Shown here one piece after another: positions 40,801 through 46,800 of a DNA stretch of 64,000 nt. Position 1 is the first letter of the stretch. The number at the start of each line of letters is the position of its first letter. This DNA is from Escherichia coli (lineage in GTDB: Bacteria > Pseudomonadota > Gammaproteobacteria > Enterobacterales > Enterobacteriaceae), in NCBI RefSeq assembly GCF_044324785.1, contig NZ_CP172127.1. One strand, 5' to 3'. The position numbers are program-made.

Positions 40801-43800
40801 TCAATCTGCGTCCAGGCGGCAATTTGTTGTGGTGAATAATGCTGACTGGCTGTCATCGTAACCGCTCTAATGAAAATAGCGCATAGTTGCTGAAAATCGC
40901 CAGGCTGATAGTTTCTTATTTGTATGTTATTCATAATGTAAGTTTTGTTTTGAATACCCGCATCCTTATTCCTTAAAGTCATTGAAATCATCATCCGTCA
41001 TATCATTAAGATATTTTTCAGCGCGGCGTGTAATTTCCTCTAATCTTGCAGCACTTGGACGGAAGCGCGCCTTTATAGGCTTTTTCTCTTCTTGTTCAGC
41101 AAGCATGTCCATTAACGCTTCGAATGCGCTGGCACTTAAGAGATATCCTGCGGGGCGATTATTAGAAAGAACCGCAACTGGTTGATCAATAAAGTATTTA
41201 GCTGGGTTTTTACGTAACTCAGTGATATTGACCGATTTTTCAGCGAGAATTCGATGCATATAGTGATCCCCTCATAATAATGCACACCAGAATATACATA
41301 ATAGTCTACATCATAATCCCAGCACCAGTTGTCTTTCCATTTGAGGGTCAAGCAACGTCACATGCAGCCCCACCAGACGCACACCGCGCCCGCCACGGCG
41401 TTCATCCCAGGTTTTACGCGCGGTGGCGATTAAGTCAGCTTTATTCAGCCGCGGCCAGACATGCTCCTGAGTGGTTTGCTGAAAATCGTCGAACTTTAAT
41501 TTCACTCCCTGACGGGCGATCAGTAAATCAGGTTTCACCTTTGCCAAGCGGCGTTCAAGTTCCGGGTACAGCCGCTCGATAATCGCTTCACATTCAGACC
41601 AGTGATGAATATCTTCCGCCATCGTGCGTTCCACGCCGACGGATTTTCGCAACCGTTCGCTGTTAACGTCGCGCTCGTCAATCCCCTGACTACGCTCCCA
41701 CAAAATGCGGCCAAATTTGCCAAAACGTTTGAGCAGAGTCACCAGATCACACTTTTGCACATCACCGCAGGTCCGCAGCCCCATCGCTTCCAGTTTTGCC
41801 GCCGAGACTTTGCCGACGCCGGGAATTTTTGCCAGCGGTAAGGTTTGCAGAAATGCCGGAACTTCTGCCGGAGTAATCACAAACTGACCGTTGGGTTTAT
41901 TCATGTCGGAAGCAATTTTGGCGAGAAACTTTACCGGCGCAACGCCCGCAGATGCCGTCAGTTGCAGCTCGTTGAAGATCGTCTGACGGATTTCCTGGGC
42001 GATGAGGGTCGCGGAGCCGTGGCAATGCACACTATCGGTGACATCGAGATAGGCTTCATCCAGTGATAACGGTTCAATGCGCGAGGTATAGCGCGAGAAA
42101 ATTTCGCGGATATGATTTGAGGCTTCTTTGTAGGCGTCAAAGCGCCCTGGAAGCAGCGTGAGATGTGGGCATAATTTGAGCGCCATCCCTGTCGGCATAG
42201 CGCTACGTACGCCAAATTTACGCGCGGGATAATTGGCGGTGCTGATCACCCCCCGACGTTCGCGGCTGCCGCCAATAGCAATAGGGATATCGCGCAGGGC
42301 AGGATTGTCGCGCATCTCCACCGCTGCGAAAAAGCAGTCCATATCCACATGAATGATTTTACGCATTGCTCACCTCTCAACACTGGTAAAGTATACAGTG
42401 ATTTCAGAGTTTGAGAAATGCGTAAAGATTCAGCATTTAACGCGTTCGCTGCGAAAGCACCTGCTGCTTATCCAGCTTTTGCACCAGCGGTTGCACCACT
42501 TTATCCCCATGCTGACCAAAGTATTGATATAGCGTATCGGACGCACTTTTGGTCAGCACCATAATCTCAATGCGCCGATTGCCCGCGCTTTGCGGATTTT
42601 TGGCATCCAGCAGCATCTGGTCCGCCATTGCGCTTACCTGCATCACTTTATCTTCCGGCATTCCGGCCTCTTCCAGCACCCGACGGGCCGAAAGCGCGCG
42701 ATCGCCCGAAAGGTTCCAGTTGTTATAGATATTGTTTTTGTAGGCCATCGCATCGGTATGCCCGGTAATAATAATTTTGTTATCGAGCGAGTCGAACACT
42801 GGCGCGAGCTCCACCAGCAAAGTTTTAAAGAACGGCATAATCTGCGCGCTGCCGCGTTCGAACATATTGCGATTCTGGTCGTCTTTAATCAGCACGCGTA
42901 ATCCCTGCGGGACAATCTCCATCTCCAGATTCGCTTCCATATGCGCATCACGGGCAATGGTGTTGATACTGGTTGCCAACTCGCCAAGCTCGGTGGCGGA
43001 TTTCTTCTTCAGCAGCGCCGTTTTCTCATTCACATCACGCGCTTTTTTCTCCGTCTCTTCCGGCACCGCCACGGTGGCAGGTTTTGGCGGATGAGACGGG
43101 CTGATTTTATTTAACGGCGATAGCCCACCACCGTTAAAAATCGACTGCCCGTGCAGCGCGGCGATAATGCTTTCACGCTCGGATTTACTGACGCTGTTGA
43201 CAATCAACTTTATCGTCGTCACCAAAGGGGCCGAGCGTATTTCCGAGGTTTCTGCCCGCTTTACCCTGGACGCGATGCCCGGCAAGCAGATGGCGATTGA
43301 CGCCGACCTTAACGCCGGGTTGATCAACCAGGCGCAGGCGCAAACCCGGCGTAAAGATGTTGCCAGTGAGGCCGATTTCTACGGCGCGATGGACGGGGCA
43401 TCGAAGTTTGTACGCGGGGATGCCATCGCCGGAATGATGATTCTGGCGATCAACCTGATCGGCGGCGTCTGTATCGGGATCTTCAAATACAACCTGAGCG
43501 CCGACGCCGCCTTCCAGCAATATGTGCTGATGACCATCGGCGACGGGCTGGTGGCACAGATCCCTTCCCTGCTGCTCTCCACCGCGGCGGCGATTATTGT
43601 CACCCGCGTCAGCGACAACGGCGATATCGCCCATGACGTGCGCCACCAGCTGCTGGCAAGCCCGTCGGTGCTCTACACCGCTACCGGAATTATGTTTGTG
43701 CTGGCGGTGGTGCCGGGGATGCCGCATCTGCCGTTTTTGCTGTTCAGCGCCCTGCTGGGTTTTACCGGCTGGCGGATGAGCAAACGCCCGCAGGCGGCGG

Positions 43801-46800
43801 AGGCGGAAGAGAAAAGCCTCGAAACACTGACCCGCACTATCACTGAAACCAGCGAGCAACAGGTCAGTTGGGAAACCATTCCGCTGATCGAGCCTATCAG
43901 CTTAAGTCTCGGTTACAAGCTGGTGGCGCTGGTGGACAAAGCGCAGGGGAACCCGCTCACCCAGCGGATTCGCGGCGTGCGGCAGGTGATATCCGACGGT
44001 AACGGTGTGCTGCTGCCGGAGATCCGCATTCGGGAAAACTTCCGCCTCAAGCCCAGCCAGTACGCCATTTTCATCAACGGCATTAAGGCCGATGAAGCGG
44101 ATATTCCGGCGGATAAACTGATGGCCCTGCCCTCCAGCGAAACCTACGGCGAGATAGACGGCGTACTGGGGAACGACCCGGCGTACGGGATGCCGATCAC
44201 CTGGATCCAGCCTGCGCAGAAGGCGAAGGCGCTGAATATGGGGTATCAGGTGATCGACAGCGCCAGCGTGATTGCTACCCATGTGAACAAGATTGTGCGC
44301 AGCTATATTCCTGATTTGTTTAACTATGATGATATTACTCAGCTGCATAACCGTTTATCGTCGATGGCTCCACGGCTGGCGGAAGATTTGAGCGCGGCGC
44401 TGAATTACAGCCAGCTGCTGAAAGTGTACCGCGCGCTGCTGACCGAAGGCGTTTCCCTGCGCGATATCGTCACCATCGCCACCGTGCTGGTCGCCAGTAG
44501 TGCGGTGACCAAAGATCATATTCTGCTGGCGGCAGATGTGCGCCTGGCGCTGCGGCGCAGCATTACCCATCCGTTCGTTCGCAAGCAGGAGCTGACGGTG
44601 TATACGCTGAACAATGAGCTGGAAAATCTGCTGACCAACGTAGTGAATCAAGCGCAACAGGCCGGCAAAGTGATGCTCGACAGTGTGCCGGTGGACCCGA
44701 ATATGCTCAACCAGTTCCAGAGTACGATGCCGCAGGTGAAGGAGCAGATGAAAGCGGCGGGGAAAGACCCTGTGCTGCTGGTGCCACCGCAGTTGCGCCC
44801 TTTGCTGGCGCGCTATGCGAGATTGTTTGCGCCGGGGCTGCATGTGCTGTCGTATAACGAAGTGCCGGATGAGCTGGAGTTGAAGATTATGGGGGCGTTG
44901 AGTTGATGGGGGAGACTATATAAGGTCTCGGACTGTCCCCTCGCCCCTTTGGGGAGAGGGTTAGGGTGAGGGGAAAGTGCGCGCTGAGCCCCTCACCCCG
45001 GCCCTCTCCCCAAAGGGGCGAGGGAGAAAAACGTGTACGACTTTAGCTTTTTCGCAGTATTGCCGTCCTACAAAATCGTCTCTTCCGTCAAAATCCGCCG
45101 CGCGCCTAAAAAATGATCCTGCCAGAAAGGTTCGGCTAACCGGCTTACCCGTATGGTTTCCCCGGTGCGTGGCGATTCGATAAATTGCCCGTCTCCCAGA
45201 TACACGCCCATATGATCGGCAATCTCACGGCTGTGAATATGGAAAAACAGCAAATCTCCCCGGCGCAGGTCGTTGTTCGCCACAATCGTTGCCCGATGGT
45301 AGTGATACATCTCATTAGCCGTACGCGGGAGCTTCGCCTCGAGGATCTTGTTGTAGGCATAAAAAACCAACCCGCTACAGTCGAAGCCTTGATCAGGCCG
45401 CGTGCCGCCCCAGACGTAAGGTTTGCCAAGCTGCTGCTCCAGGCGGTGAATCGCCACTTCGGTGATGTTGTGTAGATGGTCGCTGCTTAAGAAATGGTTG
45501 TTCTCCGCCAGCGCCTGCCAGCGTCTGTCACTCGCCTTGAGCGGCGCAGGAAACCATTCTGGATGCTGTTTTATCTGTTCGCGGTTGTGCTGGCGCAGCG
45601 CCTTTCTGCTTTCGGCATTGCCTTCCACAATGTAGCTGGCCTGCTTTTTCAGATGGGTTTGGTACTGTTTTAATAAACGCGCCCGGTTTTGCATCCGCTG
45701 GCGGGCGGCGTAGCTGAAAGAGATATGTGATGTGGTGGCGCTGGCGAGTAAAGGGAGCAAAACGCATAACGAAAACACGCCTGGATGCAGAAATCTGCCG
45801 TGAAAGAACGAAGACATGAAGGACATAAACCAGCTGAATGAAGGAGAGAATTTTAAAAGGTTGGGGGAGTAAACGGGATTATTAATTGCTTATTTGCATA
45901 TTAGTTACGAGGTTTCATAATCTTAGGAAATAAGTGATACATGCGCTTTTCGGACTAATGAAAACTGCCCCTGTGCTAAATTTGTAAACCCTGCGCCGAC
46001 AGGCTTGCGTAAAACTCTTTTGGTGATAATGTGAGCCTTCCAAATCCAGACTATTCCGATTTGGGATCCATTTTGCCGTCCTGGCGTGTGTAACCGTTTT
46101 ATCAAGGAATAAGCAGTATGCGTAAAATCGCATTAATTCTTGCGATGTTGTTGATCCCGTGCGTTTCGTTTGCCGGTTTGCTGGGCAGCAGTAGCTCAAC
46201 CACGCCAGTGAGCAAAGAGTATAAGCAGCAGTTGATGGGATCCCCTGTCTACATCCAGATCTTCAAGGAAGAACGTACGCTCGATCTCTACGTCAAAATG
46301 GGCGAGCAATATCAGCTGCTCGACAGTTATAAAATCTGTAAATATTCCGGCGGCTTAGGGCCAAAACAGCGTCAGGGCGATTTCAAAAGCCCGGAAGGGT
46401 TTTATAGCGTCCAGCGTAATCAGTTAAAACCAGACAGCCGTTACTACAAAGCGATTAATATTGGATTCCCCAATGCCTATGACCGTGCGCATGGTTATGA
46501 AGGGAAATACCTGATGATCCACGGCGATTGTGTTTCCATCGGCTGCTACGCGATGACCAATCAGGGTATTGATGAGATCTTCCAGTTCGTTACTGGTGCG
46601 CTGGTGTTTGGTCAGCCGAGCGTGCAAGTGAGTATTTACCCGTTCCGCATGACCGACGCCAATATGAAGCGCCATAAGTATTCCAACTTTAAGGACTTCT
46701 GGGAGCAACTGAAACCGGGCTACGACTACTTTGAGCAAACCCGTAAGCCACCGACCGTTTCTGTGGTCAATGGCCGTTACGTGGTCAGCAAGCCGTTAAG

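What the first reader, a model, noticed from the sequence alone, without database searches (positions are those of the whole stretch)
42437..44906. Flag-2 lateral flagellar locus deletion scar
Only 5'-truncated lafU (MotB-like) and lfhA (FlhA-like) remain. They are divergent and their truncated 5' ends overlap at 43167..43327, the signature of a single deletion removing the Flag-2 genes between them.
Basis: partly seen in the sequence, partly recalled or inferred. Interest (0 to 1): 0.3.

Follow-up and report, generated by a model that had tools for sequence, protein, structure and literature searches.

The report
Flag-2 lateral flagella deletion scar
This is the well-known scar left in most E. 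coli when the ~36-kb second (lateral) flagellar gene cluster was deleted, and the one surprise is that the same nucleotide-exact junction sits on unrelated E. coli haplotypes and in other genera, so the deletion probably recurs.

Summary
[quoted passage not shown] They are lafU (- strand, last 769 nt, OmpA domain only) and lfhA (+ strand, last 1701 nt, FHIPEP from profile position 104).

One detail is wrong. The "overlap 43167..43327" is an ORF-extension artefact. The two homologies abut at 43205|43206, sharing a 3-nt microhomology (ATC, 43203-43205). Relative to strain 042, 36,008 bp are missing.

A 70-mer spanning the junction is contiguous in 4080 of 5426 complete E. coli genomes. The feature is already known (Ren 2005; De Maayer 2020).

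Beyond the finding:
- The same junction occurs in E. albertii, Citrobacter sp. MGH106 and Kluyvera ascorbata, on genus-specific flanks.
- Scar alleles are as diverse as intact alleles and show dN/dS of about 0.03 right up to the junction.
- Three unrelated intact E. coli haplotypes each have a scar twin that is 99.9% identical on both sides, with no imported tract.

A single old neutral scar is excluded. Recurrent precise deletion is the most likely reading, and its mechanism is unknown. The lafU breakpoint lies at the tip of a conserved hairpin.

The parts
42437..43205 (-). lafU remnant. It is the last 769 nt of the MotB-like stator gene: third base of codon 52 to the stop codon, 255 full codons. 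The N-terminal transmembrane and plug region is lost and the OmpA-like domain is kept.
   Evidence: homology to intact lafU ends at 43205. (OmpA only, no MotB_plug). (255 codons, no internal stop).
43206..44906 (+). lfhA remnant. It is the last 1701 nt of the FlhA-like export-gate gene: codons 132-697 plus the stop codon. Exactly 131 codons (393 nt) are lost.
   Evidence: (FHIPEP from profile position 104 of 657). (566 codons, open frame).
43203..43205 (.). Deletion junction. The 3-nt exact microhomology ATC is present at both breakpoints of intact loci, so the crossover point is ambiguous within these 3 nt.
   Evidence: three-way alignment. (both breakpoints in five intact strains: CTGTTGACAATC|CACAGC and CTGATGATCATC|AACTTT).
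43194..43205 (+). The lafU-side copy of the imperfect direct repeat. CTGTTGACAATC here pairs with CTGATGATCATC at the lfhA breakpoint (9 of 12 identical). These are presumably the 'direct repeats' that the literature cites.
   Evidence: PMC6993521 quotes Ren 2005 on direct repeats at the deletion ends.
43167..43205 (+). A 13-codon in-frame extension of the lfhA ORF into antisense lafU sequence, starting at ATG 43167. This is an ORF-calling artefact. The ATG is not conserved in Citrobacter or Kluyvera scars.
43206..43327 (-). In-frame extension of the lafU ORF into antisense lfhA sequence. TTG 43327 is the mechanical start. GTG 43222 is the start corresponding to the one PGAP annotates for lafU in other E. 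coli genomes. This is an ORF-calling artefact.
42383..42398 (-). Context. A LexA-box-like CTG-N10-CAG (CTGTATACTTTACCAG) lies in the dinB promoter region just downstream of the lafU stop codon. dinB therefore has its own promoter and need not rely on lafU.
   Evidence: Read from the sequence. A promoter-like site at 42417-42390 on the - strand. Calling it the dinB LexA box rests on my own knowledge.
44938..45024 (.). Context. An 87-nt G+C-rich inverted repeat (36-nt arms, 92% complementary) fills the lfhA-yafL spacer. Other strains carry rayT or hicAB at this place.
   Evidence: (a copy lies inside the 042 Flag-2 locus). (rayT or hicAB in other strains).

Best explanation
The region is the canonical Flag-2 deletion scar. 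It consists of two promoterless, 5'-truncated, almost certainly non-functional remnants of the two outermost genes of the lateral-flagella cluster, each of which is the last gene of an outward-reading operon. They were joined when about 36 kb between lafU codon 52 and lfhA codon 132 was lost, at a 3-nt microhomology (ATC) inside a 9-of-12 imperfect direct repeat.

Shown:
- The identity of both remnants.
- The exact junction, and its identity with K-12 and with 75% of complete E. coli genomes.
- The loss of the membrane-anchoring N-termini.

Inferred, at roughly 0.55 confidence:
- The junction is not inherited from one ancient event. It is re-created repeatedly by a precise, sequence- or structure-directed illegitimate recombination.
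- The asymmetry of the similarity fits a copy-choice or template switch out of the conserved hairpin at the lafU breakpoint. The 9 of 12 matches lie on the lafU side of the join and end in ATC.
- Homologous recombination between strains additionally moves both states around.
- After loss the remnants simply drift. One scar carries a nonsense codon, and the E. albertii lfhA remnant is broken.
For: Identity and junction:
- (alignments to AVS0787, 042, K-12 and eight more scars; no indels).
- (Pfam).
- (RefSeq annotation and the dinB...yafL synteny).
- (a junction-spanning 70-mer is contiguous in 4080 of 5426 genomes).
- Literature: PMC3032704 (K-12 and B keep only fhiA and mbhA), PMC5369007 (fragments of ~1700 bp and 769 bp), PMC6993521 and PMC11420993.

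Recurrence:
- The same junction occurs in E. albertii, Citrobacter sp. MGH106 and Kluyvera ascorbata, with genus-type flanks.
- Cross-genus scar-to-scar dS is 1.1-2.4 with dN/dS 0.02-0.08, the same as intact-to-intact.
- The 30 lfhA codons next to the junction, read by eye from the alignment, differ between E. coli and Citrobacter scars only at synonymous third positions (about 13 changes).
- Scar and intact alleles in E. coli have equal diversity, with no valley at the junction and all four gametes at positions -70 and +8.
- Three intact haplotypes that are 3.5-4.5% apart each have a scar twin with 0-4 scattered SNPs over 5.6-7 kb and no imported tract.
- Better microhomologies exist but are never used: two exact 11-mers, 5-7 10-mers and about 20 9-mers.
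- The lafU breakpoint sits at the tip of a hairpin (-11.1 kcal/mol, z = -3.9, 0 of 200 shuffles). That hairpin coincides with the peak of synonymous-site conservation across genera.

Decay after loss.
Against: - No enzyme or mechanism was identified for a recurrent precise deletion.
- The lfhA breakpoint is not significantly structured, although it lies in a 12-nt palindrome that is conserved in other lineages.
- The invariant zone around the junction in E. coli (-69..+7) could hide very short homologous-recombination tracts. I also picked the best-matching scars out of about 4000, which favours traceless pairs.
- Regain of Flag-2 by recombination is reported for ST131, so not every switch is a deletion.
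- Only one genome each of Citrobacter and Kluyvera with the scar was examined.
- I could not read Ren et al. 2005, so I do not know how they interpreted the identical end points.
Confidence: 0.9

Rival explanations
1. One ancestral deletion. The junction arose once and is identical by descent everywhere. It was passed on vertically and spread between lineages by homologous recombination, and the remnants have been neutral pseudogenes ever since.
For: - The junction is nucleotide-identical in all 10 E. coli scars aligned and contiguous in 4080 genomes.
- No intermediate forms are reported (PMC5422975).
- The Flag-2 region is a known recombination region, and regain is reported in ST131.
- One-sided near-identity between scar and intact alleles looks like recombination. 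K-12 lfhA differs from intact O6:H16 by 1 of 1701 nt. EC9682 lafU differs from intact MS10858 by 1 of 769 nt.
Against: - Scars of different genera are saturated at synonymous sites yet have dN/dS 0.02-0.08 right up to the junction. Nucleotides next to the junction could never be refreshed from intact donors under this model.
- There is no loss of diversity and no linkage near the junction.
- Three unrelated haplotypes have traceless scar twins.
- Recombination between genera with arms of at most 8 and 21 identical nt is not plausible.
Confidence: 0.25
2. The remnants are working genes. A truncated LafU (a peptidoglycan-binding domain) and a truncated LfhA (membrane helices 5-8 plus the cytoplasmic domain) are expressed and kept by selection, which would explain the intact frames and the low dN/dS.
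For: - Both frames are open in the window and in all 10 E. coli scars aligned (566 and 255 codons), with dN/dS of about 0.03.
- PGAP annotates lafU as an ordinary CDS in most genomes.
- An ATG at 43167 follows a weak promoter-like site at 43141-43168.
Against: - The start codon is not conserved. It is ATA or ATT in Citrobacter and Kluyvera, and Citrobacter has no ATG, GTG or TTG in the 19 open codons upstream. Yet the codons next to the junction differ only synonymously.
- The E. albertii lfhA remnant stops after 335 codons.
- The lafU remnant of strain Z1323CEC0019 has a nonsense codon (E146*).
- Scar twins of intact strains show that the low dN/dS is inherited from the intact state.
- Both genes lost their operon promoters and their membrane anchors.
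Confidence: 0.04
3. The Flag-2 cluster is an integrative element and the 'scar' is its empty attachment site. On this view, traceless switches reflect site-specific insertion and excision of a mobile cassette.
For: - Switches are traceless on several haplotypes and in several genera.
- An E. coli-like cluster (LafT and LafU 96-99% amino-acid identity) sits in Pseudocitrobacter without dinB beside it.
Against: - No recombinase gene is annotated in five intact clusters.
- Diversity runs continuously through both breakpoints among intact strains, and relatedness does not change abruptly there.
- Synonymous divergence between E. coli and Citrobacter is the same inside and outside the breakpoint.
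- The similarity between the two sites lies on one side of the crossover only, unlike a core site.
Confidence: 0.05

Closest known systems
E. coli K-12 fhiA (lfhA') / mbhA (lafU') pseudogene pair, b0229-b0230 (Ren et al. 2005)
   Same: Same genes, same neighbours (dinB on one side, yafL on the other), same orientation, same nucleotide junction and same lengths (769 + 1701 nt).
   Different: Sequence identity is only 95-97.5%. This window lacks rayT and dinJ-yafQ downstream and yafO upstream, and it keeps intact rtcB (and, going by the near-identical layout of strain N3, probably prfH), which are truncated in K-12.
Intact Flag-2 locus of enteroaggregative E. coli 042 (lfhA...lafU, about 36 kb between the breakpoints)
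   Same: The remnants are 94.6% (lfhA) and 96.6% (lafU) identical to the 3' parts of the 042 genes, and the flanking genes are the same.
   Different: 36,008 bp (042 positions 286383-322390) are absent. These carry all the other flagellar genes and the 5' ends of both terminal genes.
Flag-2 scars reported in other Enterobacterales (De Maayer et al. 2020, PMC6993521) and in E. albertii (PMC11420993)
   Same: Truncated lfhA and lafU are left side by side. Here the junction is shown to be nucleotide-identical in E. albertii NBRC 107761, Citrobacter sp. MGH106 and Kluyvera ascorbata ATCC 33433.
   Different: The flanks are genus-specific (LafU 78% and LfhA 90-92% amino-acid identity to E. coli). 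In the passages I read, the papers describe the scars but do not state that the end points are identical or discuss what that implies.
ETT2, the decayed second type III secretion island of E. coli
   Same: It is another ancestral secretion-related cluster that is present, degraded or partly deleted among strains. One fragment is lost between small direct repeats (PMC5422975).
   Different: ETT2 shows many intermediate attrition forms. Flag-2 is 'present or entirely absent' with a single junction.

Membership tests
Flag-2 deletion scar (lfhA'-lafU' of E. coli K-12 type) | A lafU fragment homologous only to the 3' part of intact lafU | tested here: met
   Window 42437-43205 matches the last 769 nt of lafU in AVS0787 and 042. 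The first 155 nt are absent.
Flag-2 deletion scar (lfhA'-lafU' of E. coli K-12 type) | An lfhA fragment homologous only to the 3' part of intact lfhA | tested here: met
   Window 43206-44906 matches the last 1701 nt. The first 393 nt (131 codons) are absent.
Flag-2 deletion scar (lfhA'-lafU' of E. coli K-12 type) | The two fragments abut, are divergent, and lie between dinB and yafL | tested here: met
   dinB is at 41311-42366 (-) and yafL at 45068-45826 (-). Strains DH1 and N3 have the same layout.
Flag-2 deletion scar (lfhA'-lafU' of E. coli K-12 type) | The junction lies at the same nucleotide as in K-12 | tested here: met
   A gap-free 2470-nt alignment with K-12 DH1 and eight other scars. 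A junction-spanning 70-mer is contiguous in 4080 of 5426 genomes.
Flag-2 deletion scar (lfhA'-lafU' of E. coli K-12 type) | The remnants are not expressed and have no function | not testable with these tools
   Only indirect evidence is available. The operon promoters are lost, the start codon is not conserved, and nonsense or truncated alleles exist.
MotB/LafU stator protein | An N-terminal transmembrane helix with a plug (Pfam MotB_plug) plus a C-terminal OmpA-like domain | tested here: not met
   The remnant hits OmpA only (E = 9.5e-15). Intact LafU hits MotB_plug and OmpA. It is a fragment of a member, not a working member.
FlhA/FHIPEP export-gate protein | A complete FHIPEP domain including the first transmembrane helices | tested here: not met
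   The remnant aligns to profile positions 104-656 of 657. Intact LfhA aligns to positions 1-656.
Site-specific excision element (considered for the recurrent junction) | A recombinase gene, plus two sites that share a core symmetric about the crossover point | tested here: not met
   No recombinase is annotated in five intact clusters. The similarity is 9 of 12 on one side and 5 of 12 (counted by eye) on the other. Relatedness does not change abruptly at the breakpoints.

The most novel reading that the evidence does not exclude
The Flag-2 'scar' is not one historical accident. It is the product of a recurrent, nucleotide-precise 36-kb deletion that has happened independently on at least three E. 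coli haplotypes and in E. albertii, Citrobacter and Kluyvera. The deletion would be directed by conserved DNA features inside the coding sequence: a hairpin at lafU codons 48-59 and the palindrome TGATGATCATCA at lfhA codons 127-132. That would make it a built-in, irreversible off-switch, or at least a strong hotspot, for shedding a costly flagellar system.
Probability: 0.5. Interest if true: 0.6.

Novelty: already known. Interest (0 to 1): 0.3.

Why it matters
As a genome feature it is routine. It marks this genome as Flag-2-negative, like K-12 and three quarters of E. coli, and it should be annotated as two pseudogenes rather than as a LafU protein.

The side result matters more. Suppose a 36-kb cluster is removed again and again at exactly the same two nucleotides in several genera. 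Then presence or absence of Flag-2 is a poor phylogenetic marker. 'Identical deletion end points' cannot be taken as proof of common descent. And there is an unrecognised precise deletion mechanism in enterobacteria that could be tested directly by PCR.

Tried and rejected
- **Cassette test.** I looked for an abrupt change of relatedness exactly at the breakpoints among five intact strains, and for different synonymous divergence inside and outside the breakpoint between E. coli and Citrobacter. Neither was found. A mobile-cassette reading was therefore dropped.
- **Relaxed selection in scar twins.** Of the six SNPs inside the remnants of three twin pairs, four are private to the intact strain. 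Only two are derived in a scar, one of them a nonsense codon. The numbers are too small to use.
- **Rfam.** Nothing reaches a gathering score in 40000-47000. The hairpin at 44938-45024 gives meaningless sub-threshold microRNA matches.
- **Known recombination sites.** I compared the breakpoints by eye with Xer/dif, invertase hix, integron core and REP/RayT sites. I saw no convincing resemblance, but this was not a formal test.
- **Protein search.** The search with the LfhA N-terminus returned mostly unnamed partial proteins. It served only to fetch DNA of four other lfhA lineages, whose taxa remain unknown.
- **Ren et al. 2005.** The paper could not be read by PMC id or by DOI.
- **MS10858-type haplotype.** Its best scar match is only 99.2% identical, so not every intact haplotype has a twin in the collection.
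Full report
**1. What is there**

One is 42437..43327 on the - strand (296 aa) and the other is 43167..44906 on the + strand (579 aa). 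They lie between dinB (41311-42366, -) and yafL (45068-45826, -).

A megablast of 41437-45906 against 5,426 complete E. coli genomes finds the same arrangement in about 4,030 of them. RefSeq annotates it as "lafU" plus [quoted passage not shown]. The remaining genomes have a full-length flhA at this place. K-12 strain DH1 and strain N3 show the same layout.

Pfam confirms both truncations.
- The lafU remnant hits only OmpA. Intact LafU hits MotB_plug and OmpA.
- The lfhA remnant aligns to FHIPEP positions 104-656. Intact LfhA aligns to positions 1-656.

**2. The junction**

I aligned the window to an intact locus (strain AVS0787) and to strain 042.
- lafU-side homology runs to window 43205.
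- lfhA-side homology runs from window 43194 by BLAST, or from 43206 once mismatches are read.
- The two sides share only ATC (43203-43205) exactly. This lies within CTGTTGACAATC / CTGATGATCATC, which match at 9 of 12 positions.
- In 042 the missing interval is 286383-322390, which is 36,008 bp.
- lfhA loses exactly 131 codons. lafU loses 155 nt.

Each ORF continues in frame into the antisense of the other remnant.

**3. It is known**

- An ST131 study found "approximately 1700 bp" of lfhA and "769 bp" of lafU in a Flag-2-negative strain (PMC5369007). These are the lengths found here.
- De Maayer et al. report the lfhA-lafU deletion in 531 Enterobacterales strains, including 76 of 100 E. coli. 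They cite Ren 2005 for direct repeats at its ends (PMC6993521).
- A 70-mer across the junction is contiguous in 4080 of 5426 genomes.

**4. What I did not expect: no decay**

I built a gap-free 2470-nt alignment of 10 scar alleles and 5 intact alleles spliced in silico at the breakpoints.
- All scars have the junction at the same nucleotide, with no indels and no stop codons.
- Between scar alleles, dS is 0.10-0.24 but dN/dS is 0.007-0.043. This is the same as between intact alleles (0.030).
- Nucleotide diversity is equal in scars and intact alleles (lafU 0.034 against 0.030; lfhA 0.050 against 0.055). There is no valley at the junction.
- The nearest variable sites (-70 and +8) show all four combinations within scars and within intact alleles.
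- Scar alleles interleave with intact ones. K-12's lfhA part differs from an intact O6:H16 strain at 1 of 1701 nt.

**5. Other genera**

A scan of one genome per species (GTDB) with the LafU remnant gave 21 loci.
- Intact lafT-lafU is present in E. whittamii, two unnamed Escherichia species, several Citrobacter, Phytobacter, Leminorella and Pseudocitrobacter.
- A scar is present in an E. coli-labelled genome, E. albertii NBRC 107761, Citrobacter sp. MGH106 and Kluyvera ascorbata ATCC 33433.

At nucleotide level the join is the same in all the scars...AAAGTT|GATTGT... in the lafU-sense orientation. The flanks are genus-type from a few nucleotides outward. LafU is 78% and LfhA 90-92% identical to E. 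coli at the amino-acid level.

Scar-to-scar comparisons between genera are saturated at synonymous sites (dS 1.1-2.4), with dN/dS of 0.02-0.08. That is the same as intact-to-intact. Reading the alignment by eye, the 30 lfhA codons next to the junction differ between E. coli and Citrobacter only at synonymous third positions (about 13 changes).

In Citrobacter there is no ATG, GTG or TTG in the open frame upstream of the junction, and E. coli's ATG is not conserved. Translation of these codons is therefore unlikely. The E. albertii lfhA remnant is broken after 335 codons.

A single old neutral scar is thus excluded, and functional remnants are unlikely.

**6. Traceless twins**

I searched for each intact strain's spliced flanks among the complete genomes.
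- O111:H8-type, O6:H16-type and 042-type flanks are mutually 3.5-4.5% divergent. Each has contiguous scars that are 99.9% identical.
- The MS10858 type has only a 99.2% match.

The pairs in detail:
- ETEC H10407 against O6:H16: 3 SNPs in 3769 nt on the left and 1 SNP in 3377 nt on the right.
- Z1323CEC0019 against O111:H8: 2 SNPs on the left and 2 on the right.
- C4 against 042: 2 SNPs in the remnants. The shared haplotype runs from -956 to +4685.

None of the pairs has a cluster of SNPs at the junction.

Polarising with the 15-allele alignment, H10407 and C4 carry no derived change in 2470 nt. Z1323CEC0019 carries a nonsense codon (LafU E146*).

**7. Reading**

Transfer of the junction by homologous recombination should leave donor SNPs in the flanks, and between genera it is not feasible. 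Within E. coli, the invariant zone (-69..+7) and my choice of the best matches could hide a few short-tract events. Regain by recombination is also reported in ST131. Recombination surely contributes. Even so, the simplest account of sections 4 to 6 is recurrent formation of the same junction.

Plain microhomology does not explain that. The lafU and lfhA regions share two exact 11-mers, 5-7 10-mers and about 20 9-mers as direct repeats, and none of them is ever used.

The breakpoints have these features:
- The lafU breakpoint lies at the top of a hairpin, TTTATGACGCTGTG|GATTGTCAACAGCGTCAGTAAA. As single-stranded DNA it folds at -11.1 kcal/mol (z = -3.9, 0 of 200 shuffles as stable).
- Those codons (46-57) are the most synonymously conserved 10-codon window in lafT plus lafU 1-75 among seven divergent taxa (0.81 against a mean of 0.57).
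- The lfhA breakpoint lies in the palindrome TGATGATCATCA. It is conserved in four other lfhA lineages but is not significantly structured.
- Similarity between the two sites lies on one side of the crossover only. That fits a copy-choice or template switch better than a conservative recombinase.

I found no recombinase in five clusters, no cassette-like discontinuity at the breakpoints, and no difference in synonymous divergence inside and outside the breakpoint. The mechanism is not established.

**8. Verdict**

The finding is real, correctly interpreted, and already known. Interest in the locus itself is low. The recurrence of the junction is a side result worth a direct test.

Noticed in passing
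window 1-25000: A P22-like prophage (portal, gp10, terminase, ejection proteins, replicative helicase) fills the first ~25 kb. The best E. coli matches cover 62-75% of it at about 96-97% identity. An integrase and proA/proB lie nearby.
   Followed up: partly
window 40482-41259: yafO is missing. Relative to K-12, 376 nt between yafN and yafP are absent. This leaves the antitoxin gene yafN (40966-41259) without its toxin, overlapping a 170-aa yafP ORF. Escherichia sp. E1V33 has the same arrangement. Some Flag-2-positive strains lack both yafN and yafO.
   Followed up: partly
window 39025-40164: The RtcB-family RNA ligase gene is intact (379 aa) here. K-12 and H10407 carry only fragments of rtcB and prfH.
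   Followed up: no
window 44938-45024: An 87-nt G+C-rich inverted repeat (36-nt arms, 92% complementary) occupies the lfhA-yafL spacer. A copy (89-92% identical) lies inside the Flag-2 locus of 042. At the same place other strains carry rayT or hicAB, so this spacer is an insertion hot spot.
   Followed up: partly
window 40182-40305: A sub-threshold Rfam match (46.7 bits, gathering score 96) covers the full length of RF02818 (Vibrio AS5) between rtcB and yafP. It is possibly an ERIC-type intergenic repeat.
   Followed up: no
window 46000-64000: fadE is followed by a type VI secretion, VgrG, Rhs and ISAs1 region. Only strain N3 matches it at 98.9%, and most genomes match at 93-97%.
   Followed up: no
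whole window: The window is only about 95-97% identical to nearly all complete E. coli genomes in the core genes checked here (the best is strain N3). It matches Escherichia sp. E1V33 at 95.7% in dinB-lafU. It comes from a divergent lineage or carries divergent haplotypes in this region.
   Followed up: partly
L021, L022, L033 (Pseudocitrobacter): Pseudocitrobacter species carry lafT and lafU that are 96-99% identical to E. coli at protein level (synonymous difference about 0.2, against about 0.62 for Citrobacter). dinB is not downstream. L033 has a second copy of the lafU 3' end (aa 233-299) at 4861-5061. This looks like recent transfer of the cluster between genera.
   Followed up: partly
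L004, L005, L014, L015, L016 (intact Flag-2 loci): Each of the five 'intact' E. coli clusters examined carries a disrupted gene or an insertion sequence. 042 has a flgC frameshift. MS10858 has a fliF frameshift. O111:H8 has a flgK stop codon. O6:H16 has a lysine-N-methylase stop codon. AVS0787 has an IS1 element next to motA.
   Followed up: no
L017-L034, lafU codons 46-57 (homologous to window 43190-43205 plus the deleted part): Synonymous-site conservation across seven divergent taxa peaks at the lafU hairpin that contains the breakpoint. No compensatory changes were seen, only conservation.
   Followed up: partly
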